Program-made: the position numbers and the translations under genes | Source of the DNA: Rhizobiaceae bacterium | Lineage (GTDB): Bacteria > Pseudomonadota > Alphaproteobacteria > Rhizobiales > Rhizobiaceae | Length of the DNA: 64,000 nucleotides | Assembly: GCA_050184585.1 (NCBI GenBank) | Contig: JBFXAF010000009.1 | Location: 37,695-101,694 of the forward strand | Direction of reading: 5' to 3' | Notes under the pieces: generated by a model | What the model was told of the DNA's origin: nothing | The model's database searches: none | Seen by the model: the letters and a program-made list of their open reading frames with translations, nothing else | Shown: positions 1 to 13,008 of the stretch, piece after piece | How positions within the stretch are numbered: the first letter of the stretch is position 1 | Layout: the number at the start of each line of letters is the position of its first letter

Positions 1-965
1 TCGCCCTCCTCGCCGTCCATGAGCCACCACTGGTAGCCATAGCCGAAGGCGGAATCGGAAGTGTCGCGCTTGCCCGGCATCAGGTGCGGAGCGTCCGGCG
101 TCACCGACGCCTTCACCCAAGAGGCCGGCACGATCTGCTTGCCGCGCCAGTTGCCGCCGTTGCGGAACAGCTCGCCGATCTTGGCGAAGTCGCGCGCCGT
201 CGCCTGCAGTCCGCCATAGGCCATCTCCATGCCGTCGGAATCGACCAGCCAGTGGCCGTCGGATTCCATGCCGAGCGGATGCCAGAGCTTTTCCTCCATG
301 TAGTCCCGGATCGGCCGCCCGGTGACCTTCGTCAGCAGCATGCCCAGCACCTGCGTGTCGATCGAATTGTAGAGGTTGAACGTGCCCGGTTCCCGCTGGC
401 GTTTCAGCCGCGCCGCCAGCGCGTTGAAGGAGCCGCCCACCGCGAACACCTCGATGAAGCGGTTGATGTCGGAATCGGGGTCCGAATAATCCTCGTTCCA
501 GCGCGCCCCGGACGACATCTGGAGCACGTCCCTGATGCGCGCGCCGTCATAGGCCGAGCCCTTGAGTTCCGGCAGATGGATCGCGATGTCGTCCTCGATG
601 TTCAATCCGGCCTCGGCCGCCGCGATGCCGAGCGCGGCCGAGGTGAAGCTCTTGGCAACCGACATCGAGGTCCAGTGCGTCCTCTCCCCGCCGGACAGCG
701 CATAGCGCTCCAGCCGCATCCTGCCGTCCTGGATCACCACCAGCGCCACCGTGTCGGTGAGCGAGAGGAACGCCTCGGTGGATTTCTCCTCGCTTTCGTG
801 CCGGTAGGTCTCGGGCAGCGTCAGCGGCTCGCCCTCGACAAAGGACATCGGCGTCGGCGAGGCGGTCATGGTGGCAATCGGAAAGATCTCGGCCAGCCGG
901 CGGAACACGCCGTGCATGCTCTTGCCCGAAAACATGCTCTGCGCGAATTCGAGACGTTCGCTCAT
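1..965 (-). CDS. serine hydrolase / beta-lactamase-fold protein, N-terminal part (3' end runs off the window)
   Basis: Manual minus-strand translation from ATG at 965: MSERLEFAQSMFSGKSMHGVFRRLAEIF...THWTSMSVAKSFTSAALGIAAAEAGL. It has an S-x-x-K motif (SVAK). The ORF is not in the track because it leaves the window. Its start overlaps the TetR stop. Confidence 0.7.
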   Translation of the reverse strand, partial: MSERLEFAQSMFSGKSMHGVFRRLAEIFPIATMTASPTPMSFVEGEPLTLPETYRHESEEKSTEAFLSLTDTVALVVIQDGRMRLERYALSGGERTHWTSMSVAKSFTSAALGIAAAEAGLNIEDDIAIHLPELKGSAYDGARIRDVLQMSSGARWNEDYSDPDSDINRFIEVFAVGGSFNALAARLKRQREPGTFNLYNSIDTQVLGMLLTKVTGRPIRDYMEEKLWHPLGMESDGHWLVDSDGMEMAYGGLQATARDFAKIGELFRNGGNWRGKQIVPASWVKASVTPDAPHLMPGKRDTSDSAFGYGYQWWLMDGEEG

Positions 966-1558
966 CGTCCTACCCCCTTCCGCTCGTCCAGCCGATCCAC
1001 CACCTGCTGCATCGCCGCCCGAAGCGTCCCCTTGCGCTTCGGCGCGATGCCGAAATCCCTCAGGCTGGTGTCGCCGAGCGCCAGCGCCAGGATCGCATAG
1101 GCCGCGCCCTGGCGCTCGGCGGAACTGCGGCCCGCTCTGTTCCGGGCCATGGCACCGACCAGCAGGTCGATCGCATAGTCGTACACCCCGTGCAGGCGCT
1201 CCCTGACATGCTGGTCGTATTTCGCCACATACCACAGTTCGCCCATGACCGTGTTGGTGAGTTCGTTGCCGAACACCTCGCCGGCGTAGAGATCGATGAG
1301 CCCGTCGAGGTCGGCCGCCCCCTTCTCGTCGCGGACGCGCGACAGGCTGGCTTCCGACCGGACCATCAAGCGTTCGATCAGCCGGTCCACCATGTCGTCG
1401 CGGTTGCCCATGAAGTAGCGCACGAGGCTGCGTGGCAGCGCCGCCTCGGCGGCCACGTCGGCCAGCGTCGTCGCGGCCAGCCCCTGCCGCGCCACGCAGG
1501 CCTCGAAGGCATGCATGATCTCCTCGCTGCGTTCCTCGAATTTCGGCGGTCGGCCCAT
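962..1558 (-). CDS. TetR/AcrR family transcriptional regulator
   Basis: 198 aa ORF with an N-terminal HTH (ATTLADVAAEAALPRSLVRYFMGNRDDMV) typical of the TetR family. Divergent from the SBP gene. Confidence 0.85.
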   Translation of the reverse strand: MGRPPKFEERSEEIMHAFEACVARQGLAATTLADVAAEAALPRSLVRYFMGNRDDMVDRLIERLMVRSEASLSRVRDEKGAADLDGLIDLYAGEVFGNELTNTVMGELWYVAKYDQHVRERLHGVYDYAIDLLVGAMARNRAGRSSAERQGAAYAILALALGDTSLRDFGIAPKRKGTLRAAMQQVVDRLDERKGVGR

Positions 1559-1570
1559 CGGTCAGCCTTT

Positions 1571-1588
1571 CCTGTCAGCGTTGACAGG
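1571..1588. promoter_or_regulatory. palindrome CCTGTCA-N4-TGACAGG, candidate TetR operator
   Basis: Perfect 7-bp inverted repeat in the 96-bp divergent intergenic region. Confidence 0.35.
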
Positions 1589-1607
1589 AAACCGGAACGG
1601 GAGTTTA

Positions 1608-1623
1608 TTGTCAATAATGACAA
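1608..1623. promoter_or_regulatory. palindrome TTGTCA-N4-TGACAA, second candidate TetR operator
   Basis: Shares the TGTCA-N4-TGACA core with the site at 1571..1588. Confidence 0.35.
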
Positions 1624-1654
1624 GAAACGCTCGACCAGAGCAAAGGGGAACGGC

Positions 1655-2737
1655 ATGTCTCTTTCGAAACTCACCAGTGCCCTGCTTGCCGCGTCGGTTA
1701 CCGGTGCGGCGCTGCTCACCGCCTTCGCCGGCCGCGCCGAGGACGCGCCGCTCACCGTCTTCGACTGGCCGGGCTACGAGGATCCCGCTTTGCACGCCGA
1801 CTATGCGGCGAAGCATGGCGGCTCGCCGGCCTTCGCCTTCTTCGGCGACGAGGACGAGGCCTTCGAGAAGCTGCGCACCGGCTTCAAGGCCGACCTCGCG
1901 CATCCCTGCGCCACCAATGTGGTGAAGTGGCGCGACGCGGGCCTGATCCAGCCGCTCGACACGTCGCGCATCGCGGCGTGGGACGACATCCTGCCGGGCA
2001 TCCGCGAGATCGACGATTTGATGGTCGACGCCGACGGCAAGGCTTGGTTCCTGCCCTTCGACTGGGGCAACACGCTGCTCACCTACCGGACCGATACGGT
2101 GCAGGAGGCGGACGTCGCGTCCCTGAAGGTCTTCGCCGATCCGAAGTTCAAGGACCGCATTTCGATCCCGGACAACACCGACGCGGCTTACGCGCTGGCG
2201 CTGCTGGCCGTCGGGGCGAACGACGTTCAGAAGGTCTCCGACGAGGATTTCGAAAAAGCCTCCGCCTTCCTGCGCGAGGTTCACAAGAACGTCCGGCTCT
2301 ACTGGGGCGACAATACCGAACTCGGCCAGGCGCTGGCCGGCGGCGAGGTCGACATCGCCTGGGCCTGGAACGAGACCGCCAACGCGCTCAAGGCCGCCGG
2401 CATGCCGGTTGCGGTCAGGAAGGACACGGCCGAGGGCATCGCGTCCTGGGTCTGCGGCTATGTGCATCTGAAGGACGCGCCGGGCAGCGTCGACGCCGTC
2501 TACGACTTCCTCAACGCCGCGACCGCGCCTGCCGTGTCGAACTACATGGTCACCGCTTGGGGCTACGGCCACGCCAACGGCAAGGGCATGGCGGCGGTCG
2601 ACCCGGCGGCGCTGGAGGCCGCGGGCCACAAGGATTTCGAGACGACGATGAAGACCTCGCTCTTCGCCGCGCCGATCGACCCGGCCATGAAGCAGAAATT
2701 CGTCGCCGAGTTCGAGAAGATCAAGGCGGGGTATTGA
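1655..2737 (+). CDS. ABC transporter periplasmic substrate-binding protein (PotD/PotF-like family), no adjacent permease/ATPase
   Basis: ATG 1655 begins a signal peptide (MSLSKLTSALLAASVTGAALLTAFAGRAED). Length and overall sequence look typical of spermidine/putrescine-type SBPs. The upstream part of track ORF 1190.. is antisense to the TetR gene. Confidence 0.8.
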   Translation: MSLSKLTSALLAASVTGAALLTAFAGRAEDAPLTVFDWPGYEDPALHADYAAKHGGSPAFAFFGDEDEAFEKLRTGFKADLAHPCATNVVKWRDAGLIQPLDTSRIAAWDDILPGIREIDDLMVDADGKAWFLPFDWGNTLLTYRTDTVQEADVASLKVFADPKFKDRISIPDNTDAAYALALLAVGANDVQKVSDEDFEKASAFLREVHKNVRLYWGDNTELGQALAGGEVDIAWAWNETANALKAAGMPVAVRKDTAEGIASWVCGYVHLKDAPGSVDAVYDFLNAATAPAVSNYMVTAWGYGHANGKGMAAVDPAALEAAGHKDFETTMKTSLFAAPIDPAMKQKFVAEFEKIKAGY

Positions 2738-2815
2738 GGGGTATCGGGTCAGCTTGAAATCTGCCGGCTCGCCAGTCGCCTAGCGCCCCCTCTCTATGTA
2801 TGCTCACCGGAAAGC

Positions 2816-3118
2816 ATGGAACCTCGGAAAATGGCTCGGATGTTTGAGCGGTCCTTCGGAGGCAGGTCGGTGGACTTTGGCGTCTCCGACTCGCGACCTT
2901 ATGTTGCACCAACACCAAGGTCGAAGCGATCTGGCAAGCTAAAGGCGCCGACCATTCAGCAACCGCGTTCAGAGGAAAGTCGACTGCGAGACGAGTATGC
3001 GTTCTATAAGCGCGAAGAGAAGCGCCAACGTCGTGCCGGCACTGATAGATGGATCAAGCCGTTCCAACTATGCTTGGAGATTGAACGCTATTTCCAGATG
3101 CGCGGGAAAGTCTTGTGA
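2816..3118 (+). CDS. hypothetical small basic protein (uncertain)
   Basis: 100 aa ORF inside the low-GC islet, very basic, with no recognisable motif. Confidence 0.25.
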   Translation: MEPRKMARMFERSFGGRSVDFGVSDSRPYVAPTPRSKRSGKLKAPTIQQPRSEESRLRDEYAFYKREEKRQRRAGTDRWIKPFQLCLEIERYFQMRGKVL

Positions 3119-3347
3119 TGGCTACAAGGACCTAGCGCCCAAAAGCGCGGACTAACGTTATCGGCCATGCCGTGAGGGTCATGCGCATTGAGATAGCTAA
3201 GAAGCGGAGAATTGCAGCAGGCACCGGACCGAGCGCTGAGATTGCGAAGATAGCACAGTAATGCCCGTGGAGAAACAAATACCCTGCTAGACACAGGGAC
3301 AGGATTTGGGTAGTAGGGTATGCACGAGTCAGGACAGGACTTTTGCG

Positions 3348-4025
3348 ATGCCCGATTACCAAGAGGCGCTTGATAGCGCATTTCCCGAACACACCTACGG
3401 CGATACCATTCGCGCGTTGCGGGAGGGTGTTGCGCTCGGCGACGATGCCGTCAAAAGCCTCCCCTTTCTGGATACTCCAGTTGGAAAAGATTTCCGTGGG
3501 CTGGTGCGTCGCGCTGGCGTGATGTTTCGAATACATCAACTCTGTGAAGCTGGCGATCTGCCGTTCGTCGCTGAATTCACACCAATGCCCATTGGCAGCT
3601 GGCATTGGCTAGAAATCCGCAGCGGTCAATGTCGCGGCTTTCTGGTGAGGACGGTGGATAAAGACGCGTTCCCCGAAGATACACCGAACCAGCAGGACAA
3701 GCGCCACTCTAATCAGATCGAGATGTTCGATGACCCGAAGGTCGTCCAACTGCCGACTGCCAAGCTGTACACCGCGTGGCTATGTTACGGAGCCACCAAG
3801 AACGGAGCGCTGAGTCATGCCCTATGGGGTCTCCCGAGCGGGCAGGAGACCGAAACATGGCTGGCTCGGCGGGATGCCCTGAACGCCGTCCGCACAGTAG
3901 TTGTTAGACCTGAAGAAGCGAAGCGCCCCGCGGTGAATCCGCGTGATGCTATGAAATTTCGGGAGGAGGTTCAGGAAGCGCTGGAGCAGCAAAAGGGCGA
4001 GATCGATTCCGGCCAAGAGAAATGA
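3348..4025 (+). CDS. hypothetical protein, no recognisable domain (candidate toxin/effector of the islet module)
   Basis: First in-frame ATG is at 3348, with AGGACAGGA upstream; the track starts at TTG 3306. No TM segment or signal peptide. The stop overlaps the next ATG (ATGA at 4022..4025). Confidence 0.6.
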   Translation: MPDYQEALDSAFPEHTYGDTIRALREGVALGDDAVKSLPFLDTPVGKDFRGLVRRAGVMFRIHQLCEAGDLPFVAEFTPMPIGSWHWLEIRSGQCRGFLVRTVDKDAFPEDTPNQQDKRHSNQIEMFDDPKVVQLPTAKLYTAWLCYGATKNGALSHALWGLPSGQETETWLARRDALNAVRTVVVRPEEAKRPAVNPRDAMKFREEVQEALEQQKGEIDSGQEK

Positions 4026-5137
4026 CGAGCGAGCAGCATAAGGTGATCCCGGAGCGAATCCGGGAGGCGCGCGAAGCGGCTGGTTTGACCGACGAGCAAT
4101 TCGCTGATGCGATTGGCGTCTCGCGCGGTGCAGTTGGCCATTATGAGACTGGTTTGAGCGCGCCTAGGGGCGAAGTGTATGCCCGAATCATAGATGTGAC
4201 GGGACAGCCGCCGTCGTTTTTCACAACGCCTCGAAATAGGTCAGTATCCCGCTTCCGCATGCCTAATTGGCGCAGCTTGAAACGGATGCAGAGACCAGAG
4301 CGGTTGCGCATTGCTCGCCGGTTGGAATGGGCTTTCGACATCACGTCCTACCTAGAGCGGTTTATTGAACTGCCCCCCGTTCGATTGCCCGAAATCGATT
4401 TCGACTATGAGAACGACGACGACGACAAGATTGAATCTGTCGCAGAGGCGGTTCGAAAGCTCTGGGGGCTTGCCTATGAGCCGGTAACTGACCTTACCGC
4501 TGTGCTTGAATTCAACGGCTGCATCTTGATTGAAGAGTATGTGAAATGCGAGGACATGGATGCGGTTTCTCGCTGGCAAGGAGGGCGCCCCTATATCCTC
4601 TATTCCAAAGAAGTGCAGAGCACCTCGCGTACACTTTTCAATCTAGCCCATGAACTTGGTCATATCGTCCTACATGCCTCTGTCGAGGTAACCAGCAAGA
4701 ATCTAGACAAGATTGAACGACAGGCAAACAGGTTTGCTGGTGCATTTCTGTTGCCAAGGAAGCAGTTCGCTTCCGAGGTCGCAAGTACCTCCATAGACTA
4801 TTTATTGGCAATGAAACAGCGATGGCGTGTAGCAGTCGCTGCAATGGTTTATCGTTGCAAAGACCTTGAAATTCTAAACCCTATTCAGGTCCAGTATATT
4901 TGGAAGCAAATGAACATGCGGCGTATTCGTAAGAGGGAGCCGCTGGATAATGCGTTTAATCTGCCTTCACCGACAGTTTTGGCGACGGGCGTGCGAATGT
5001 TGATTGAGCACCGTGTTCAGCCAAAGGCACAGATTGTGGGCGCGCTGGCATTGAACACCTTCGATATCGAAAGTCTCAGTGGCTTGCAAAGGGAAGAACT
5101 GCAAACCAAGGTTGTCCAGTTGCGGCTTATAAAGTAA
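4022..5137 (+). CDS. XRE-family HTH fused to ImmA/IrrE (M78, COG2856-type) zinc metallopeptidase
   Basis: N-terminal HTH (LTDEQFADAIGVSRGAVGHYETG). Intact HEXXH (HELGH, aa 210-214, nt 4649..4663) in the context FNLAHELGHIVLH. Confidence 0.85.
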   Translation: MTSEQHKVIPERIREAREAAGLTDEQFADAIGVSRGAVGHYETGLSAPRGEVYARIIDVTGQPPSFFTTPRNRSVSRFRMPNWRSLKRMQRPERLRIARRLEWAFDITSYLERFIELPPVRLPEIDFDYENDDDDKIESVAEAVRKLWGLAYEPVTDLTAVLEFNGCILIEEYVKCEDMDAVSRWQGGRPYILYSKEVQSTSRTLFNLAHELGHIVLHASVEVTSKNLDKIERQANRFAGAFLLPRKQFASEVASTSIDYLLAMKQRWRVAVAAMVYRCKDLEILNPIQVQYIWKQMNMRRIRKREPLDNAFNLPSPTVLATGVRMLIEHRVQPKAQIVGALALNTFDIESLSGLQREELQTKVVQLRLIK

Positions 5138-5441
5138 ATATTTAGTACTTGGTGCCGAGCATTAAAATTTTCATATAGAGGTAGACGAGTCGGTTTTCAC
5201 CTGAAATCGAGTCCAAACTTTCACGATTGCGAGGGGGCGGCTGACGTCTCCGAACCGATGACGACGTGGTTGCGATGATTGACGCGGTTTCGTCCTACAA
5301 GCGCGGCAAGGCAGATTCCGACTGAAACACTGCCGGCACCCGCGACCATTTTTCCTCTGACATCACGCGGCATTTCGGTATGTTGCCGGCCGCGATGTCG
5401 GGCTGGCCCGGCGAAAGGACCCTTTCAACCGGGAGCCCCCG

Positions 5442-6623
5442 ATGTCCGGCCGGCCCGTATCCATCTTCCGCGAGTTCATCGACAGCGAATCCTCCGGCGG
5501 CATCGTCCTGATGGCGGCCGCCGCACTTGCGCTCGTCGTCGCGAACTCGGCGCTCGCGCCCGTCTACTTCGATACGCTGCATGCCTATCTCGGGCCGCTG
5601 AGCGTCTCCCACTGGATCAATGACGGCCTGATGGCGGTCTTCTTCCTGCTGGTCGGGCTGGAGATCAAGCGCGAGGTTCTCGACGGCCAGCTCTCCACCT
5701 GGCCGCGCCGCATTCTTCCAGGCATCGCCGCCGCCGGCGGCATGGTCGTGCCGGCGCTGATCTACGTGGCGCTCAACATCGACAATCCCGGCGCGCTGCG
5801 CGGCTGGGCGATCCCGACCGCCACCGACATCGCCTTCGCACTCGGCGTGCTGTCGCTGCTCGGCAGCCGCGTGCCGGCGTCGCTGAAGGTCTTTCTCACC
5901 GCGCTCGCCATCATCGACGACCTCGGCGCCGTCGTCATCATCGCGCTGTTCTACACAGGCGGCCTGGAAGTCTGGTGGCTGGCCGCCGCCTTCTTCATCC
6001 TGGCCCTCCTCGTCGGTCTCGGCCGCATGAAGGTCGACACGCTCTGGCCCTATCTCGCGCTCGGCCTGATGTTGTGGTTCTGCGTGCTCCAGTCGGGCGT
6101 CCACGCCACGCTCGCCGGCGTCGCGCTCGCCATGACCATCCCGCTGAAGCGCGCGCCCGGCATCGAACACGACCTCGAGGAATCGCCGCTGCACCGGCTG
6201 GAGCACGCGATCAGCAAGGTCGTGCCCTTCGTGATCGTGCCCGTCTTCGGCTTCGCCAATGCCGGCGTCTCCTTCGCCGGCATGACGCCCGCGGCGCTGC
6301 TCGATCCGCTCACCCTCGGCGTCGCGCTCGGCCTCGTCCTCGGCAAGCTCGTCGGTGTCTTCGGCACCACCTTCATCGCCGTCAGGTCCGGCCTGTCGGA
6401 CATGCCGGCCAATGCCGGCTGGTCTCATGTGCTTGGCGTTTCCCTGCTCTGCGGAATCGGCTTCACCATGAGCCTCTTCATCGGCCTGCTCGCCTTCGCC
6501 GACGACGTCGGTCTCCAGGACGACGTCAAGGTCGGAATCCTGACCGGCTCGCTCGTCGCCGCCCTGCTCGGAGCGGCGATCCTCGCGCTGGGTCCGAGGC
6601 CGTCGCCCGACCTCGCGGAGTGA
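5442..6623 (+). CDS. nhaA: Na+/H+ antiporter NhaA
   Basis: 393 aa polytopic protein with NhaA-typical motifs (HWINDGLMAVFFLLVGLEIKRE, IPTATDIAFALGV). Confidence 0.95.
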   Translation: MSGRPVSIFREFIDSESSGGIVLMAAAALALVVANSALAPVYFDTLHAYLGPLSVSHWINDGLMAVFFLLVGLEIKREVLDGQLSTWPRRILPGIAAAGGMVVPALIYVALNIDNPGALRGWAIPTATDIAFALGVLSLLGSRVPASLKVFLTALAIIDDLGAVVIIALFYTGGLEVWWLAAAFFILALLVGLGRMKVDTLWPYLALGLMLWFCVLQSGVHATLAGVALAMTIPLKRAPGIEHDLEESPLHRLEHAISKVVPFVIVPVFGFANAGVSFAGMTPAALLDPLTLGVALGLVLGKLVGVFGTTFIAVRSGLSDMPANAGWSHVLGVSLLCGIGFTMSLFIGLLAFADDVGLQDDVKVGILTGSLVAALLGAAILALGPRPSPDLAE

Positions 6624-6836
6624 CGGCGCGACTTCTCGGCGGAATCGCGCGCCCGTAACGCCCGAACGGCGGAATCCGGGCCCGTTTTCCTGGACAGGGA
6701 GGGCCTGTGAACAAATTTGGCGGACCCTGGCGGCACGGTCGCGCGCATGTGCTTGAAATGTCGGGAAAGATCGCGCGTCGAATTCTTCGCGGCGAGAAAA
6801 TCGATCCACCTGCCCGATCCCTCCCATATGGGGGGA

Positions 6837-8123
6837 TCAGATCCTGTCCCTCAGCGCGTACCAGTTGAGCGCGAGGAAGAGCAGCACCGAGCGGAAGCGG
6901 TCTCCGCCTGGGAAAGCCGGGATCTTCAGCTCCTCGAAGAGTTTCAGGCGGTCGCGGTTGCCCGCCACCGTTTCGGCGTAGAGCTTGCCGACGAAATTCG
7001 ACAGCATCACCCCATGCCCGGAATAGCCGCCGGCCGAGATCACGTTCGGCATCACCTCGCGCACGAACGGCTTTCGCGGCACGGTGATGCCCACGTAGCC
7101 GCCCCAGCCATGCGTGATCTCGACATCCTTAAGTGCTGGATATATCTCGGCAATCTGCCGGCGGATCGCGGCCGGGATGTCCTTCGGATCGGTGACGGCG
7201 TAGATCTCGCGCCCGCCGAAGAGTAGCCGCCCGTCCTTCGATTTCCGAAAATAGCGCACCACGAAACGCGAATCGTCGACCGATTCCCCGCCCGGCAGCA
7301 CCGGACTGTCCGAACCCAGCGGCACGGTCGCGCCGATGAACGAGCCGATCGGCATGATGTGCGACGTGCTCTGTTCTTCCAGCCCGGCATTGTAGGCGTT
7401 GGTGGCGATCAACCCCTTGTCGGCGTTGACTAATCCGGTCGGCGTCGTGACCACGACCTTGCCACCTTTGCTCTCGATCTTCAGCGCCCTGGTGTTCTCA
7501 TGCAGCTTCGCGCCGGCCTCGGCAGCCACGCGCGCCGTGCCGATGACCAGCTTGAGCGGGTGGATATGGCCGGTGCCGGTGTCGCGCGTGCCGCCGAAAT
7601 AGCGAGTGGAACCAAGGCGTTCCGCCGTTTCGGCCGCATCCATGAACGTGACGTGGTCATAGCCGGCGCGCTCCCGCATGTAGTCGGCGTACTTCCGGTA
7701 GTCGTCGACATAGCGCTTCTTGTGCGCGACCGAGAGCTGGCCCGGCGCGTAGTCGATCTCGATGCCGTTTGTCTCAGCGAAATCAAGAAGATGCGCCTTT
7801 GCCTCCTCGGCGAGGTCGAACAGGGCCTTGGCGCGTGTCCAGCCCCAGGCGGCCTCCATCTCGTCGAGCGACCCGCGCTGTCCGGTGCCGAGTTGCCCGC
7901 CATTGCGGCCCGACGCCCCATCGCCGAACCGGTTGGCGTCGATCAGCACGACGCTGGCTCCCGACTTGGCGAGATGCGTCGCCGCGGAAAGCCCGGTGAA
8001 TCCGCCGCCGACGATGGCGACGTCGGCCGATACCGACCCGTCAAGCGGCTGATATTGCGGACGTTCTCCCGCGGTGTCTTCGTACCAGGAGACGCCGGGG
8101 GAGATGGGGGACTGGTAGGTCAT
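6837..8123 (-). CDS. FAD-dependent oxidoreductase (DAO family, gamma-glutamylputrescine oxidase PuuB-like)
   Basis: Dinucleotide-binding motif VAIVGGGFTGLSAA. ATG at 8123 (MTYQSP...); the track extension to 8255 reads through the octamer repeat. Confidence 0.8.
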   Translation of the reverse strand: MTYQSPISPGVSWYEDTAGERPQYQPLDGSVSADVAIVGGGFTGLSAATHLAKSGASVVLIDANRFGDGASGRNGGQLGTGQRGSLDEMEAAWGWTRAKALFDLAEEAKAHLLDFAETNGIEIDYAPGQLSVAHKKRYVDDYRKYADYMRERAGYDHVTFMDAAETAERLGSTRYFGGTRDTGTGHIHPLKLVIGTARVAAEAGAKLHENTRALKIESKGGKVVVTTPTGLVNADKGLIATNAYNAGLEEQSTSHIMPIGSFIGATVPLGSDSPVLPGGESVDDSRFVVRYFRKSKDGRLLFGGREIYAVTDPKDIPAAIRRQIAEIYPALKDVEITHGWGGYVGITVPRKPFVREVMPNVISAGGYSGHGVMLSNFVGKLYAETVAGNRDRLKLFEELKIPAFPGGDRFRSVLLFLALNWYALRDRI

Positions 8124-8138
8124 CAGGGCAATAGGTGA

Positions 8139-8157
8139 GTAGGGCAGTAGGGCAGTA
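8139..8157. repeat. 2.4 copies of GGCAGTAG (reverse complement of the CTACTGCC octamer)
   Basis: Sequence gtag ggcagtag ggcagta, read directly. Inverted relative to the array at 8540..8607. Confidence 0.85.
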
Positions 8158-8160
8158 TGT

Positions 8161-8535
8161 TCATGGCTGTCCTTCAGACAACTTGCGGATAAGAAGCCGG
8201 AGGAGTTTGCCGACGCTTTCAGCGCGACTGAGCAATTCTCCGGTTGATTGATCACTGGCCAGGCCGATCCGGTTCGCGATCAAGAGGTGGGTCTCGAGTT
8301 CTTTGAGCGAACCCTGGGCTATGCGTAGAAACTGTTGATACGAACCACGGTTCTCCCGAGCAAATCCCTCGGCGATGTTTGCGGGGATCGAGGTTGCGGC
8401 CCGCCGCGCTTGCGAGGTCAGCCCATACAGTTCCTCACGGGGCCAACGTTTGGTTTCGGCATAGGTCGCGACGACCAGATCCATGGCCTGTTGCCAGACG
8501 ATCAGATCCTTGTAGGACTCAATTGGTGCAGTCAT
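8161..8535 (-). CDS. four-helix-bundle protein (23S rRNA intervening-sequence protein / Avd family)
   Basis: 124 aa with typical family sequence (YKDLIVWQQAMDLVV...SIPANIAEGFAR...FLRIAQGSLKELETHL). Confidence 0.85.
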   Translation of the reverse strand: MTAPIESYKDLIVWQQAMDLVVATYAETKRWPREELYGLTSQARRAATSIPANIAEGFARENRGSYQQFLRIAQGSLKELETHLLIANRIGLASDQSTGELLSRAESVGKLLRLLIRKLSEGQP

Positions 8536-8539
8536 CTTC

Positions 8540-8607
8540 CTACTGCCCTACTGCCCTACTGCCCTACTGCCCTACTGCCCTACTGCCCTACTGCCCTACT
8601 GCCCTAC
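8540..8607. repeat. tandem octamer CTACTGCC x 8.5
   Basis: Counted directly: 8 perfect copies at 8540..8603 plus ctac. Lies between the 4HB start codon (8535) and the GS-like stop (8613). Confidence 0.95.
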
Positions 8608-8612
8608 AAATC

Positions 8613-10046
8613 TCACACGTTCAGCAGCAGGAACTCCCGCTCCCACGGGCTGATGACCTCCATGAAGGTCTCGAATTCGGCTCGCTTGATCGCCGCGTAG
8701 GTGGCGCAGAAGCCTTCGCCCAGCATGGCGCGAAGGTCCGCGTCGCCCTCGAAGAGGTCGACCGCTTCGAGCAGTCCGCGCGGCAGGTCGATCTCGTCCT
8801 CGTTGGCGGTAGTCAGGATCGGCGCCTCCGGCTCGATCTTGCGGCGCATGCCGATCAGCCCGCAGGCGAGCGAGGCGGCGAGCGCGAGATAGGGATTGGC
8901 GTCCGACGAGGGAATGCGGTTCTCGACCCGCCTTGCCGCCGGGTCGGAGCGCGGCACGCGGAAGGCCGTCGTGCGGTTGTCGTAGCCCCACTTGTTGTTG
9001 ACCGGCGCGGACGCCGCCTGGGTCAGCCGGCGGTACGAATTCACATAGGGCGCGAACATGACCAGCGCATTTGGCACATGCGTCTGCATGCCGCCGATGA
9101 AATGCCGGAAGGTCGCCGATTCCGAGCCGTCCGCCTCGGCGAAGACGTTCTGGCCGGTGCGTCTGTGCACCACCGACTGGTGGATGTGCATGGCCGAACC
9201 CGGCTGACCCTGGATCGGCTTGGCCATGAAGGTGGCGTAGGTGTCGTGCTTCAGCGCCGCCTCGCGGATCGTACGCTTGAACATGAAGACCTGGTCGGCG
9301 AGTTCGACGGGATCGCCATGGCGAAGGTTGATCTCGAGCTGGCCGGCGCCCTCCTCGTGGATCAACGTGTCGATCTCCAGCCCCTGGCTTTCGGAGAAAT
9401 GGTAGATGTCGTCGATCAGCTCGTCGAACTCGTTGACGCCGGCGATCGAATAGCCCGCGCCGCCGCCGATGGCGCGGCCCGACCGGCCGACCGGCGGGGT
9501 GAGCGGATAGTCGGGGTCGGGGTTCTTGCGCACGAGATAGAACTCGATCTCGGGCGCGACGACGGGTTTCAGTCCGTCCGCCTCATATGCCGCGAGAACC
9601 TTCTTGAGCACGTTGCGTGGCGTGAACTCGACGAAACGGCCTTCCTGATGGACGAGGTCGCAGATCACCTGCGCCGTCGGGTCGCTTTCCCATGGGACGA
9701 CCGTCAGCGTCGACAGGTCCGGCACCAGCTTCAGGTCGCCGTCGTCCTCGGGGTAGGAGAAGCCGTTGCCGTCCTCCGGATAGCCGCCGGAGATGGTCGC
9801 CATGAAGACGGCCGACGGCAGCGCCAGCGAGGTGTTCGAGGTGAACTTCTTGGAAGGCATCATCTTGCCGCGGGCGACGCCCGCCTGGTCTGGCGTGATG
9901 CACTCGATATCCTCGATGCCGCGCCATTCGAGCCACGCGCCGGCTTCCTTGAAATTTCGGACGCCGCGATGGTTCTTCAGAAACGCGGGCTTGCGCGAGC
10001 GCGACCCGCGGCCGGTGGGGCGCGCTTCCTTCTTCACGAGAGCCAT
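8613..10046 (-). CDS. glutamine synthetase family protein (gamma-glutamylpolyamine synthetase PuuA-like)
   Basis: About 477 aa with a GS catalytic-domain-like sequence (GSAMHIHQS, NSYRRL, WGYDNRTTAFRVP). ATG at 10046; the track start at 10049 is TTG. Confidence 0.85.
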   Translation of the reverse strand: MALVKKEARPTGRGSRSRKPAFLKNHRGVRNFKEAGAWLEWRGIEDIECITPDQAGVARGKMMPSKKFTSNTSLALPSAVFMATISGGYPEDGNGFSYPEDDGDLKLVPDLSTLTVVPWESDPTAQVICDLVHQEGRFVEFTPRNVLKKVLAAYEADGLKPVVAPEIEFYLVRKNPDPDYPLTPPVGRSGRAIGGGAGYSIAGVNEFDELIDDIYHFSESQGLEIDTLIHEEGAGQLEINLRHGDPVELADQVFMFKRTIREAALKHDTYATFMAKPIQGQPGSAMHIHQSVVHRRTGQNVFAEADGSESATFRHFIGGMQTHVPNALVMFAPYVNSYRRLTQAASAPVNNKWGYDNRTTAFRVPRSDPAARRVENRIPSSDANPYLALAASLACGLIGMRRKIEPEAPILTTANEDEIDLPRGLLEAVDLFEGDADLRAMLGEGFCATYAAIKRAEFETFMEVISPWEREFLLLNV

Positions 10047-10366
10047 CAATCACCAGGATTTGTTGCCGATGGCGAGACTATAGCCGGGCCGCGCGAACGA
10101 AGGGAAGGGGAGGGGAGTGGTGGTATGCCGGCGTGAATTTCAGCTCGCGACGCCATTTCGGTCGTTCGTGTCGACGGTGATCACTCCTGGAATCGGATCT
10201 TGCATGCGGCTGTCGTCATCGTTGACACTACCGCATAAGTCATGTGCAGAACTGCCGCTTTAATCGGGATTTTCCCGAAACTGGCAACGAACCGTAGACC
10301 ACCCCTCCTAAATCTTCGTTCAACTTGTCAGGTTTATTCTGGCGGCGGTTGTTCTTTGGAAATGCT

Positions 10367-11029
10367 ATGCTGTCTGCCCGTTTCCGCTTTCTGCCGATCC
10401 TCGCCGTGGCGCTGCTCGCTCTGACGCTGGCTGGATGCCGGGATATCTATGAATGGCATCAGAAACTCACCGTGACGGTAGAGACGCCCTTGGGCCAACG
10501 GTCAGGCTCCGGCATCGCCAAGATCGTCGCGCTGTTTGGCCGGCTTCCGGCCAGCAGCAGCGAAGTCGAGTACAGAATTACCGGCGAGGCGACGGTGGTG
10601 GAAATGTCGCCGGGGCAGTATCTTTTTGCGCTGTTGGATGAAGGCTCCAAAGAACTTGCCGCCGCTACTTGGAGAGGAGAGCTTCCCACGGGGCGTCACC
10701 ACTGGCTGCCACGCATCCCCGATCTGAAAGGTCCGAAGGATGTTCCGCAAGCCCGCTATCCCATGCTGGTGACGTTCACCGATCTCGGTAATCCCAAGAC
10801 CGTGCGCCGTCTCAACCCCGCCGATCTCGCGGCGACCTTTGGCCCCGGTTATGCCCTCAAGGGAATCACGCTGGAGATCACCGACGAGCCGGTGACAGTC
10901 GGAGCGGTGGAAAGCGTGCTGGGATGGCTGCACGATCCAACCTATCGAACGCCCCCTGTCTGGCCGTCCCTGACGCAACTGCAGCAAGATACGTTGTCGG
11001 GCATGGTGGTTCAAGGCCGCAGGCTATGA
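10367..11029 (+). CDS. hypothetical lipoprotein
   Basis: ATG 10367 gives MLSARFRFLPILAVALLALTLAGC with a lipobox (LAGC). No other motif recognised. Confidence 0.6.
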   Translation: MLSARFRFLPILAVALLALTLAGCRDIYEWHQKLTVTVETPLGQRSGSGIAKIVALFGRLPASSSEVEYRITGEATVVEMSPGQYLFALLDEGSKELAAATWRGELPTGRHHWLPRIPDLKGPKDVPQARYPMLVTFTDLGNPKTVRRLNPADLAATFGPGYALKGITLEITDEPVTVGAVESVLGWLHDPTYRTPPVWPSLTQLQQDTLSGMVVQGRRL

Positions 11030-11290
11030 CCCGGATTATAGCGGACGCGCTCTAGGGGCGGGTTCTTTCATCGCGTAGATTGTCGCGCAATTCCAAAGTT
11101 TCGCGACAAAATCGACGGCTCAAATTTCTCATGAAGAATCCGTCGCAAAAGTCAGGTGTAAGAGTCGAAATTGCGCGACAGATTTTTACGACAGTGGAAG
11201 GCTGCTTCCGCCCTCTGCTGGCCCAAATCCTGCCTATCCGCTCTCCACCCCCAAGCGGACGCTCAAGCGGACACGTGGGAAAACAGCAGA

Positions 11291-11314
11291 CCCCCGTGCG
11301 TGGCCGCACGGGGG
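11291..11314 (-). terminator. rho-independent terminator-like hairpin for the 79-aa gene
   Basis: cccccgtgcg-tggc-cgcacggggg, followed on the minus strand by a T-rich run (tctgctgtttt). Confidence 0.5.
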
Positions 11315-11354
11315 CCTCCTTCTCCCGAAAGTCAACGCCGTTCGAGCGGCAGGG

Positions 11355-11594
11355 TCAGCCGTGCGCCTGGGTGACGATGACCGGCGTGAGCAGGTCGCCC
11401 CAGTTGCCGTCGCCGCCGTGGTGACGGGCCGAGCGGATCAGCTCCACCGACACGCCGGCCTCGACCGCCTTCATGACGGCCTGGTTGAGGCGATGCAGGT
11501 CGTTGGCGACGATGCGGATCGCCGCCTGCTGGTCGTTGGTCATCGTCGAGGCCTGCTCCTCGGCGCGTTCCTTGACGTGGGTCCTGGGTGTCAC
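11355..11594 (-). CDS. hypothetical small protein (79 aa)
   Basis: GTG start preceded by AAGGAG at good spacing. High-GC3 coding look. No family recognised. Confidence 0.55.
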   Translation of the reverse strand: MTPRTHVKERAEEQASTMTNDQQAAIRIVANDLHRLNQAVMKAVEAGVSVELIRSARHHGGDGNWGDLLTPVIVTQAHG

Positions 11595-11718
11595 GGCTCT
11601 TCTCCTTGGCTCGCCCGTCGGGCGTTTCCTCTGTGACCTGCCCCTCGCTAGGGCTCAGGGCGTTCGTTCGCTTGGAAAGCCCATTCAGGGGCTTTCCATC
11701 TGCTTCGCAGACCGCTCC

Positions 11719-13008
<1,290 letters not shown>

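What the first reader, a model, noticed from the sequence alone, without database searches (positions are those of the whole stretch)
3348..5137. Unknown protein translationally coupled to an XRE-HTH::ImmA/IrrE (intact HELGH) fusion: candidate toxin/effector plus protease-switch module
Seen: a ~226 aa ORF (3348..4025; no TM segment, no signal peptide, no motif I recognise) ends in ATGA, overlapping the start of a 371 aa protein. That protein combines an N-terminal XRE HTH with an M78 metallopeptidase domain with intact HEXXH (HELGH at 4649..4663). Established: ImmR/ImmA (ICEBs1), DdrO/IrrE and CapH/CapP (CBASS and other defence systems) are HTH-repressor plus M78-protease switches. COG2856-Xre fusions were predicted as antitoxin or regulator components of type II TA-like systems with diverse toxins. 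Toxin-first operons with XRE antitoxins exist (higBA, mqsRA). Inference: the upstream unknown protein may be a novel toxin or defence effector, and the fusion its neutraliser or stress-triggered regulator.
Basis: partly seen in the sequence, partly recalled or inferred. Interest (0 to 1): 0.7.

Follow-up and report, generated by a model that had tools for sequence, protein, structure and literature searches.

The report
RosmerTA toxin-antitoxin defence cassette

Summary
ORF1 (3348..4025, 225 aa) overlaps ORF2 (4022..5137, 371 aa) by ATGA. ORF2 carries an XRE HTH, an M78 peptidase domain and an intact HELGH at 4649..4663.

The pair is not a new kind of system. PADLOC profiles call ORF2 RmrA (E 4e-108, full length) and ORF1 RmrT (E 4e-14, full length), which makes it RosmerTA (Millman 2022; Ernits 2023). 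In 30 related loci the ORF1 homologue is followed by an RmrA gene wherever the contig allows. Both genes are under purifying selection. The cassette sits in a low-GC insert (GC3 about 0.6 against 0.91 in the flanks) among housekeeping genes of a high-GC genome; its relatives are all alphaproteobacterial.

The toxin subfamily is uncharacterised. It has no Pfam, NCBIfam or PHROG model. A confident AlphaFold model (pLDDT 92.7) has no Foldseek match in PDB or BFVD. No catalytic-type residue is conserved across the family.

Its best conserved linear motif (window QIEMF; relatives QLDLF, QLSLF, QLxLxL-like) resembles beta-clamp-binding motifs. Another Rosmer toxin, pneumococcal RipA, targets DnaN, but I could not show that RipA is homologous to ORF1. 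Clamp targeting is therefore a hypothesis (about 0.3).

Verdict: new member of a known kind, with modest interest.

The parts
2750..5250 (.). Low-GC insert that carries the cassette, between a solute-binding protein gene (ends 2737) and nhaA (5442..6623)
   Evidence: GC is 46-60% here against 63-70% in the flanks. GC3 is 0.61 and 0.57 for the two genes against 0.91 for the flanking genes. Flank identities come from Pfam. DNA similarity to the closest relative L009 covers only 3261..5142.
3118..3262 (+). Decayed remnant of a small (76-81 aa) gene that sits directly upstream of rmrT in many relatives
   Evidence: Aligns with the intact gene of L009, but has a TAG at codon 6 and two deletions of 22 and 55 nt. 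The intact gene is present in 10 of 22 species-level loci.
3288..3316 (+). Promoter-like element: -35 TAGACA (3288-3293), 17-nt spacer, -10-like TAGTAG (3311-3316)
   Evidence: A T[TA][GT]AC hexamer, a 17-nt spacer and a -10-like hexamer lie 57-82 nt upstream of the aligned gene start in 21 of 21 loci. The simple consensus scan did not call it. Function is inferred.
3282..3298 (.).
   Evidence: Present. The left arm is not conserved in L009. The scan flags it only as one of 4 terminator-like sites, against 2.8 expected by chance.
3331..3339 (+). Ribosome-binding-site-like AGGACAGGA, 8 nt before the ATG
   Evidence: Read from the sequence. The equivalent CAGAGGA or CAGGA is conserved in relatives.
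3348..4025 (+). rmrT, the putative toxin (225 aa)
   Evidence: PADLOC RmrT PDLC03933, E 4e-14, aa 4-214 of 225. All 62 members of a family-wide alignment hit the same profile. Under purifying selection. AlphaFold model pLDDT 92.7.
3714..3728 (+). QIEMF (aa 123-127), the window's copy of the family's most conserved linear motif; clamp-binding-motif-like
   Evidence: Alignments, conservation, motif classes. Function is hypothetical.
4022..4025 (+). ATGA stop/start overlap (translational coupling)
   Evidence: Relatives show an overlap or a gap of at most 14 nt.
4022..5137 (+). rmrA, the putative antitoxin and autoregulator (371 aa)
   Evidence: PADLOC RmrA PDLC03947, E 4e-108, aa 3-369. PHROG 2439, E 5e-89. 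NCBIfam spr1629-family repressor/antitoxin, 179 bits, below the 335-bit cutoff.
4058..4219 (+). XRE-type helix-turn-helix domain (aa 13-66)
   Evidence: Pfam HTH_3, E 5e-12.
4556..4861 (+). M78 (ImmA/IrrE) metallopeptidase domain (aa 179-280), with HELGH at 4649..4663
   Evidence: Pfam Peptidase_M78, E 2e-19. H210, E211, H214, E232 and the ANxFA motif are invariant from the window to pneumococcal RipB.

Best explanation
The locus is a horizontally acquired RosmerTA cassette. It pairs a toxin (RmrT, 3348..4025) with an antitoxin (RmrA, 4022..5137), co-transcribed and translationally coupled.

**Shown here**
- Both proteins match the family's profiles.
- The pair is syntenic across relatives that share as little as 32% toxin identity.
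- Both genes evolve under purifying selection.
- The peptidase motif is intact.
- The cassette is foreign to its neighbourhood.

**Taken from published work on other members**
- RmrT arrests growth when RmrA is absent. A deletion of rmrA could not be obtained, and ripB is essential only when ripA is present.
- The pair can protect against a narrow set of phages.
- In pneumococcus and in E. coli E101, control of the toxin also needs ClpX or ClpP.

**Inferred for this locus**
- RmrA's HTH represses the conserved promoter at 3288..3316.
- The M78 and C-terminal part of RmrA keeps RmrT harmless, by binding or cleaving it, possibly handing it to ClpXP.
- Phage infection or loss of RmrA frees RmrT and stops the cell.

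**How this toxin subfamily might kill.** The family has no conserved catalytic-type residue and no known fold. I think it acts by binding rather than by catalysis. Its conserved N-Q-x-[DE]-[LM]-F loop may occupy the peptide-binding cleft of the beta sliding clamp. I give that last step about 0.3.
For: **Family assignment**
- ORF2 hits 14 RmrA profiles over its full length, the best at E 3.6e-108. ORF1 hits RmrT PDLC03933 (E 4.3e-14, full length), PDLC03938 and PDLC03940.
- All 62 members of a family-wide alignment hit PDLC03933, the best at E 6e-84.

**Linkage**
- Of 30 loci, 28 have a full RmrA homologue immediately downstream. One is cut by the contig end and one is degraded in both genes (gene calls).
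- More distant members of the ORF1 family also sit directly upstream of an HTH-M78 gene. These are in an Enterococcus phage, a pneumococcal conjugative element, Lacticaseibacillus phage R24.2, a Zymomonas plasmid and E. coli phage Tritos / an LF82 prophage.

**Real genes, foreign origin**
- The GC dip is. The cassette lies in different contexts in different genomes.

**Peptidase and defence context**
- The HExxH motif and E232 are invariant across the aligned RmrA proteins.
- In Rhizobium phaseoli the cassette lies next to a PLD nuclease, a DEAD/ResIII helicase, T5orf172 and an MmeI-type enzyme.

**Literature**
- Millman 2022 preprint, Ernits 2023 PMC10440598, RipAB PMC12795458, Rousset 2020 preprint, Pectobacteriaceae Tn-seq.

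**Clamp idea**
- The loop motif is among the best conserved segments: N122 86%, F127 73%, Q123 71%, L126 69%.
- Of 111 full-length members, 71 fit the pentamer or hexamer form at that column. The strict pentamer occurs anywhere in 41 proteins (40 of them at that column), against 5.8 in shuffles. The forms include the canonical QLDLF, QLSLF and QLNLF.
- The consensus QLxLF / QLxLxL is taken from PMC4564189 and PMC4549789.
Against: **No experiment on this locus**
- Toxicity, rescue and phage defence all rest on other family members.
- The window protein's own RmrT score is modest (50.7 bits).
- RosmerTA homologues can be inactive against the phages tested.
- The small upstream gene that accompanies the pair in many relatives is decayed here. 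If it matters, the system may be impaired.

**Against the clamp idea**
- RipA, the toxin with the DnaN evidence, belongs to another RmrT profile (PDLC03931). It shows no significant profile similarity to this family: hhalign probability at most 1% and hmmsearch 7.8 bits.
- Q is replaced in about 30% of members, while D-L-F is kept.
- In the better model the segment has pLDDT of about 86 rather than looking disordered. Its hydrophobic residues may therefore be conserved for packing.
- I could not read the coordinates to check exposure.
Confidence: 0.85

Rival explanations
1. The pair is a selfish addiction module only. It stabilises itself or a former mobile element and has no role in phage defence in this host.
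For: - The cassette stands alone among housekeeping genes, with no other defence gene nearby.
- Its usual upstream companion gene is decayed.
- Some RosmerTA homologues gave no protection against the phages tested.
- In pneumococcus the described role is competence induction rather than defence.
Against: - Both genes are intact and under purifying selection.
- A relative lies in a clear defence island.
- Other members gave measurable phage protection.
- Addiction and defence are not mutually exclusive.
Confidence: 0.15
2. It is a CapH/CapP- or ImmR/ImmA-type transcriptional switch. On DNA damage or another signal, the M78 domain cleaves the HTH part and de-represses ORF1. ORF1 would then be an effector controlled only at the level of transcription, not neutralised protein-to-protein.
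For: - ORF2 gives weak hits to capP (E 3e-18), capH (E 9e-6) and the CapP structure 7t5t (E 1.6e-4).
- A conserved promoter lies directly upstream.
- Ernits 2023 also suggests HTH cleavage as a regulatory mechanism in Rosmer-like systems.
Against: - In CapH/CapP and ImmR/ImmA the repressor and the protease are separate proteins. Here they are fused, and a conserved 90-residue C-terminal extension is part of the RmrA profile.
- RipB neutralises RipA when both are expressed in trans from foreign promoters, which transcriptional control alone does not explain.
- No integrase, excisionase or CBASS genes lie nearby.
Confidence: 0.12
3. RmrT of this subfamily is an enzyme or a membrane-acting toxin, like the membrane-depolarising Gordonia phage Kita RmrT, and not a clamp binder.
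For: - RmrT partners of RmrA are very diverse, and one depolarises membranes.
- The QxDLF segment is predicted with good confidence and could be structural.
- H86 and H157 are invariant in the close alphaproteobacterial subfamily.
Against: - There is no hydrophobic segment.
- No His, Asp, Glu, Cys or Ser is conserved above 70% across the whole family.
- No fold match to any enzyme: best Foldseek E-value 3e-3, with TM-scores of about 0.2 for all listed matches.
Confidence: 0.35

Closest known systems
RosmerTA (RmrT/RmrA) anti-phage toxin-antitoxin systems (Millman et al. 2022; Ernits et al. 2023)
   Same: - Toxin of unknown fold next to an antitoxin that fuses an XRE HTH with an M78/ImmA Zn-peptidase.
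- Toxin-first order and tight gene coupling.
- Both proteins match the family's PADLOC profiles.
   Different: - The window's pair has not been tested.
- Its toxin belongs to a subfamily for which I found no published experiment. That subfamily is rare in its close form: 20 clusters among 5.8 billion proteins, all alphaproteobacterial where the organism is named.
RipA/RipB (Spr1630/Spr1629) of Streptococcus pneumoniae, a Rosmer system whose toxin targets the DnaN sliding clamp and needs ClpX to be held in check
   Same: - Same architecture.
- RipB aligns with ORF2 over its full length, with all peptidase residues conserved.
- ORF2 hits the NCBIfam spr1629 model at E 1e-52.
- RipA starts with MLNQDLFD, which resembles this family's NQxDLFD loop.
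   Different: - ORF2 scores 179 bits against a cutoff of 335.
- RipA hits a different RmrT profile (PDLC03931).
- Profile comparison with the ORF1 family is not significant.
SocAB of Caulobacter crescentus (type VI TA: clamp-binding toxin SocB, antitoxin SocA as ClpXP adaptor)
   Same: Works-like comparison only. It is an alphaproteobacterial toxin that blocks replication by binding the beta clamp and is kept down through ClpXP. The Rosmer literature shows the same dependence on ClpX or ClpP.
   Different: I did not test sequence relatedness. The RipA authors report no similarity between SocB and RipA, or between their antitoxins. SocA has no HTH or M78 domain (own knowledge).
ImmR/ImmA (ICEBs1), DdrO/IrrE and CapH/CapP repressor-protease switches
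   Same: They share the M78 peptidase fold family and an XRE HTH partner.
   Different: - There the two functions are separate proteins that regulate a mobile element, a DNA-damage regulon or a defence operon.
- Here they are fused, carry an extra C-terminal domain, and are paired with a toxin gene.

Membership tests
RosmerTA | Antitoxin RmrA: one protein with an N-terminal XRE HTH and an M78 (COG2856/ImmA) peptidase domain, matching RmrA profiles over its full length | tested here: met
   Pfam HTH_3 plus Peptidase_M78. PADLOC RmrA PDLC03947, E 3.6e-108, aa 3-369 of 371.
RosmerTA | Intact metallopeptidase motif (HExxH plus a downstream Glu in ExxANxFA) | tested here: met
   H210, E211, H214, E232, A235, N236, F238 and A239 are invariant in 8 RmrA proteins, including RipB.
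RosmerTA | Adjacent gene matching an RmrT profile | tested here: met
   PDLC03933, E 4.3e-14, full length. 62 of 62 family members hit it. The window protein's own score is modest.
RosmerTA | Conserved two-gene operon | tested here: met
   28 of 30 loci have the full pair. The two exceptions are one contig end and one decayed copy. Gene spacing ranges from a 23-nt overlap to a 14-nt gap.
RosmerTA | RmrT is toxic and RmrA neutralises it | not testable with these tools
   Shown only for other members.
RosmerTA | Protection against phage | not testable with these tools
   Shown for other members, with a narrow spectrum. The defence-island context in one relative is only suggestive.
RipAB (spr1630/spr1629) equivalog | Antitoxin reaches the NCBIfam NF052239 cutoff, and the toxin is homologous to RipA | tested here: not met
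   179 bits against a cutoff of 335. RipA hits PDLC03931, not the ORF1 profiles. hhalign probability is at most 1%.
ImmR/ImmA or CapH/CapP switch | Separate repressor and protease genes next to the element or defence operon they regulate | tested here: not met
   HTH and M78 are fused in one 371-aa protein. No integrase, conjugation or CBASS genes lie in the neighbourhood.
Beta-clamp-binding proteins | Pentamer QLxLF or hexamer QLxLxL motif, exposed, that binds the clamp cleft | tested here: inconclusive
   The window has QIEMF at aa 123-127. 71 of 111 family members fit one of the two forms at that column. Exposure and binding could not be tested, and pLDDT there is about 86.
SocAB (type VI TA) | Sequence relatedness to SocB or SocA | not tested
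   No SocB or SocA sequence was at hand. The comparison is functional only.

The most novel reading that the evidence does not exclude
The RmrT superfamily that includes ORF1 (PADLOC PDLC03933, 38, 40, 34 and 37) would be a family of non-enzymatic replication poisons. Members occur from Rhizobiales to Enterococcus, pneumococcal conjugative elements and E. coli prophages. Each would insert an internal, family-wide conserved clamp-binding motif (QxDLF, QLSLF or QLxLxL) into the beta-clamp cleft. Together with RipA, which is not detectably homologous and starts with NQDLFD, this would make clamp poisoning a recurrent effector strategy of RosmerTA systems. It would also explain their dependence on ClpXP in the way SocAB does.
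Probability: 0.3. Interest if true: 0.6.

Novelty: new member of a known kind. Interest (0 to 1): 0.33.

Why it matters
As it stands, this is one more RosmerTA cassette. It is useful for annotation, because both genes are currently labelled 'hypothetical' and 'helix-turn-helix' in relatives, but it is not surprising.

The toxin side of RosmerTA is poorly understood. One toxin depolarises membranes and one targets DnaN. This subfamily is widespread and has a confident model with no known fold. It also offers a short, testable motif. If the motif binds the clamp, it would give a mechanism for a large share of Rosmer toxins and a second, independent case of defence or TA modules poisoning the replisome. 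A handful of point mutants and a peptide-binding assay would settle it.

Tried and rejected
**Naming ORF1 by sequence: nothing beyond RmrT**
- Pfam, NCBIfam and PHROG searches returned nothing usable for ORF1. NCBIfam also returned nothing for 62 family members.
- A profile search of PDB sequences gave 0 hits at E up to 10.

**Naming ORF1 by fold: no match**
- Foldseek of two models against PDB and of the first against BFVD gave a best E-value of 3e-3, and no listed match had a TM-score above about 0.3.

**Tying ORF1 to a tested toxin**
- I recovered RipA from the paper's primers through a metagenome scan. It belongs to another RmrT profile and profile comparisons fail. I therefore rejected transferring the DnaN target by homology.
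- I looked for the E. coli E101 toxin WP_001179380.1 through phage Tritos and E. coli genomes. I found only WP_001180546.1, WP_032298929.1 and WP_064185948.1, so no link was made.

**Other dead ends**
- Hairpin operator at 3282..3298: not conserved.
- Insert boundaries: only a 12-nt imperfect direct repeat (2878-2889 and 5242-5253), indistinguishable from chance.
- The second homologue search, using the wide alignment, added few named proteins.
- The 100-aa ORF at 2816..3118 has no match in any library or related locus.
Full report
**1. The observation**

An ATG-initiated ORF runs 3348..4025 (225 codons plus stop) and ends in ATGA at 4022-4025. The ATG of that tetranucleotide opens a 371-codon ORF, 4022..5137. 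Pfam places an XRE-type HTH at residues 13-66 and a Peptidase_M78 domain at residues 179-280 of ORF2. HELGH lies at 4649..4663. ORF1 has no hydrophobic segment: its highest 19-residue Kyte-Doolittle mean is 0.71.

Both ORFs are real genes. Against the closest relative, ORF1 differs in 104 synonymous and 27 non-synonymous codons, and ORF2 in 178 and 31. Most differences fall at third positions.

**2. What it is**

PADLOC's defence-system profiles identify the pair directly. ORF2 matches 14 RmrA profiles end to end, the best at E 3.6e-108. ORF1 matches the RmrT profile PDLC03933 over residues 4-214 (E 4.3e-14) and two further RmrT profiles more weakly.

RmrT and RmrA are the two genes of RosmerTA. 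[quoted passage not shown] Ernits et al. treated the HTH-ImmA protein as a hub antitoxin paired with many unrelated toxins. They found 58% of pairs in toxin-first order, and validated one phage-borne system as a membrane-depolarising toxin with narrow anti-phage activity. NCBIfam adds a full-length but sub-threshold match of ORF2 to the 'spr1629 family repressor/antitoxin' model, 179 bits against a cutoff of 335.

**3.

Close homologues of ORF1 are rare: 20 clusters among 5.8 billion proteins. A pattern scan of one genome per species found 22 loci; all those named to class level are Alphaproteobacteria.

In the 30 loci fetched, the ORF1 homologue is followed at once by an ORF2 homologue in 28. 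One locus ends at the contig edge. One, in Roseovarius sp. 217, is degraded in both genes (gene calls).

An exhaustive HMM search of 1.84 billion representatives widens the family to 145 proteins of 200-230 residues. All 62 members of a family-wide alignment match the same RmrT profile.

More distant members sit directly upstream of an HTH-M78 gene in five further settings. These are an Enterococcus phage, a pneumococcal conjugative element, Lacticaseibacillus phage R24.2, a Zymomonas plasmid, and E. coli phage Tritos. The Tritos pair also occurs in 41-45 of 5,426 complete E. coli genomes, where in strain LF82 it lies between hokD and ydfU.

**4. Surroundings**

The cassette lies in a 2.5-kb dip in GC content, 46-60% against 63-70%. 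GC3 is about 0.6 for the two genes, against 0.91 for the flanking genes. It sits between a solute-binding protein gene and nhaA, with further housekeeping genes beyond. No integrase, phage or other defence gene is nearby.

DNA similarity to the closest relative stops at 3261 and 5142. The pair therefore moves as a small cassette. In Rhizobium phaseoli the same cassette sits beside an IS66 element, a PLD-family nuclease, a helicase, T5orf172 and an MmeI-type enzyme, which is a typical defence island.

I found no convincing target-site repeats. I could not name the source genome.

**5. Upstream region**

What is conserved is a -35-like hexamer: TAGACA here at 3288-3293, TTGACN in most relatives. 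A 17-nt spacer and a -10-like hexamer (TAGTAG, 3311-3316) follow. This arrangement appears 57-82 nt upstream of the aligned gene start in all 21 sequences examined. A purine-rich ribosome-binding site follows (3331-3339). The simple consensus scan did not call this promoter, so it rests on conservation alone. Binding of the RmrA HTH there is inferred.

Immediately upstream, 10 of the 22 species-level loci carry a 76-81-residue gene with no family assignment. In the window that gene is a wreck, with an early stop and two deletions (3118..3262).

**6. The toxin**

No Pfam, NCBIfam or PHROG model covers the toxin, and no PDB sequence resembles it. With the shallow alignment AlphaFold gave pLDDT 76.6. 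With the 62-sequence alignment it gave pLDDT 92.7 and pTM 0.87.

The model has the following layout:
- an N-terminal helical bundle, residues 4-68;
- a six-stranded sheet in two halves, residues 74-101 and 141-176;
- an intervening 40-residue excursion containing one helix, residues 113-122;
- a long C-terminal helix.

Foldseek finds nothing significant in PDB or BFVD: the best E-value is 3e-3, and no listed match has a TM-score above about 0.3.

Across 111 full-length members the best conserved positions are prolines, glycines, a tryptophan, arginines and the stretch N122-Q123-x-x-L126-F127. No His, Asp, Glu, Cys or Ser exceeds 70%. From this I infer that the toxin is more likely a binder than an enzyme.

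**7. A lead on the target**

The conserved stretch reads QIEMF in the window. In close relatives it reads QxDLF, including QLDLF, QLNLF and QLDMF. A Zymomonas plasmid copy and one distant member have QLSLF. Many distant members have QLxLxL-like hexamers, for example QLSLGL, QLTLPL and QFSLPL.

These are the two accepted forms of the bacterial beta-clamp-binding motif, pentamer QLxLF and hexamer QLxLxL. In those motifs Q1 and the hydrophobic residues at positions 4 and 5 matter most.

Of the 111 members, 40 fit a strict pentamer at that column, 10 a loose pentamer and 21 a hexamer. In shuffled sequences a strict pentamer turns up anywhere in only 5.8 of 111.

Independently, the pneumococcal Rosmer toxin RipA (Spr1630) is suppressed by substitutions in the peptide-binding pocket of DnaN, and those substitutions abolish its two-hybrid interaction with DnaN. 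RipA also needs ClpX as well as RipB to be held in check. clpP or clpX likewise becomes essential in an E. coli strain and in Pectobacteriaceae that carry such modules.

**8. Why the clamp idea stays a hypothesis**

I recovered RipA from the paper's primer table through a metagenome scan. It is 243 aa and lies between trpA and a prepilin peptidase gene. It belongs to a different RmrT profile (PDLC03931, E 2e-80). It is not significantly similar to the ORF1 family: hhalign probability at most 1%, and hmmsearch 7.8 bits. The target therefore cannot be transferred by homology.

Two further points weaken the idea. About 30% of family members replace the Q while keeping D-L-F. In the better model the segment is predicted with confidence (pLDDT about 86) rather than as disordered. 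The hydrophobic residues may therefore be buried and conserved for structural reasons. I could not inspect the coordinates.

Two small observations point the other way. RipA begins MLNQDLFD. An unrelated RmrA partner in Clostridioides phage phiCD418 carries EQLSFF.

I put clamp targeting at about 0.3.

**9. Mechanism, with its status**

- **Shown here:** the architecture, family membership, synteny, selection, the intact peptidase motif, foreign origin and the conserved promoter position.
- **Established for other members, not this one:** the toxicity of RmrT without RmrA, rescue in trans, narrow anti-phage activity, and dependence on ClpX or ClpP.
- **Inferred:** RmrA represses the promoter through its HTH. 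It holds RmrT inactive through its peptidase and C-terminal part, possibly by priming it for ClpXP. Infection or loss of RmrA releases RmrT, which arrests the cell. The target of this toxin subfamily is unknown, and the beta clamp is the best candidate I can name.

**10. Comparison and verdict**

The locus meets every sequence-level criterion for RosmerTA. It fails the criteria for the RipAB equivalog, and for ImmR/ImmA or CapH/CapP switches, where the repressor and protease are separate genes sitting in a regulated element.

It may work like SocAB of Caulobacter, which pairs a clamp-binding toxin with ClpXP-dependent control. I did not test relatedness, so that is an analogy.

I file it as a new member of a known kind. 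Interest is modest (0.33). The motif-based clamp hypothesis is the one part worth an experiment.

Noticed in passing
window 3118..3262; L002 4211-4456; L006 5705-5935; L009 about 7694-7936: A small gene of 76-81 aa (MPxGPKGExRPxDVIGNAxKVMxIATGE...GGKARAxxMxxxRRxEIAxxAAxxRW) sits directly upstream of rmrT in 10 of 22 species-level loci, across toxin identities down to about 38%. It has no Pfam or NCBIfam family. In the window it is a decayed remnant. Whether it is a third component or shared mobile-element baggage is unknown.
   Followed up: partly
window 8125..8157 and 8539..8607, flanking 8161..8535 (- strand): Two arrays of an 8-nt tandem repeat flank a 124-aa 23S_rRNA_IVP (four-helix-bundle) gene in a lower-GC patch. 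One is AGGGCAGT x4.1. The other is CCTACTGC x8.6 with 100% matches. The two units are reverse complements of each other after rotation.
   Followed up: no
window 2816..3118 (+): A 100-aa ORF inside the low-GC insert has no match in Pfam, NCBIfam, PADLOC, PHROGs or any of the related loci. It may be non-coding filler or a fragment of the element that delivered the cassette.
   Followed up: partly
L036 6545..7276 (RipA, Streptococcus pneumoniae); L046 691..1446 (Clostridioides phage phiCD418): RmrT-type partners that are not detectably homologous to ORF1 also carry clamp-motif-like peptides. RipA starts MLNQDLFDSLE and has PIQMELV further in. The phiCD418 protein has EQLSFF. The RipA paper does not mention a motif.
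   Followed up: partly
L001 (Rhizobium phaseoli CP013522.1) 2952..12684: The same cassette, at 66% toxin and 78% antitoxin identity, lies between an IS66 element and a PLD-family nuclease gene, T5orf172/MUG113, a DEAD/ResIII helicase and an MmeI-type restriction-modification enzyme. This is a defence-island setting that the window lacks.
   Followed up: partly
L026 (Roseovarius sp. 217) 8001..9531: A decayed copy of the pair. The toxin match stops at residue 182, and only residues 253-367 of the antitoxin are recognisable.
   Followed up: no
window 2878..2889 and 5242..5253: An imperfect 12-nt direct repeat (TGGCGTCTCCGA and TGACGTCTCCGA) roughly brackets the low-GC insert. It is too short to distinguish from chance.
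   Followed up: no
L050 (E. coli LF82) 501..2257; L042 (phage Tritos) 842..2598: A member of the ORF1 toxin superfamily (hmmsearch E 2e-17) with its RmrA partner sits in a lambdoid prophage between hokD and ydfU. It is present in 41-45 of 5,426 complete E. coli genomes and is annotated only as 'hypothetical protein' and 'helix-turn-helix domain-containing protein'.
   Followed up: partly
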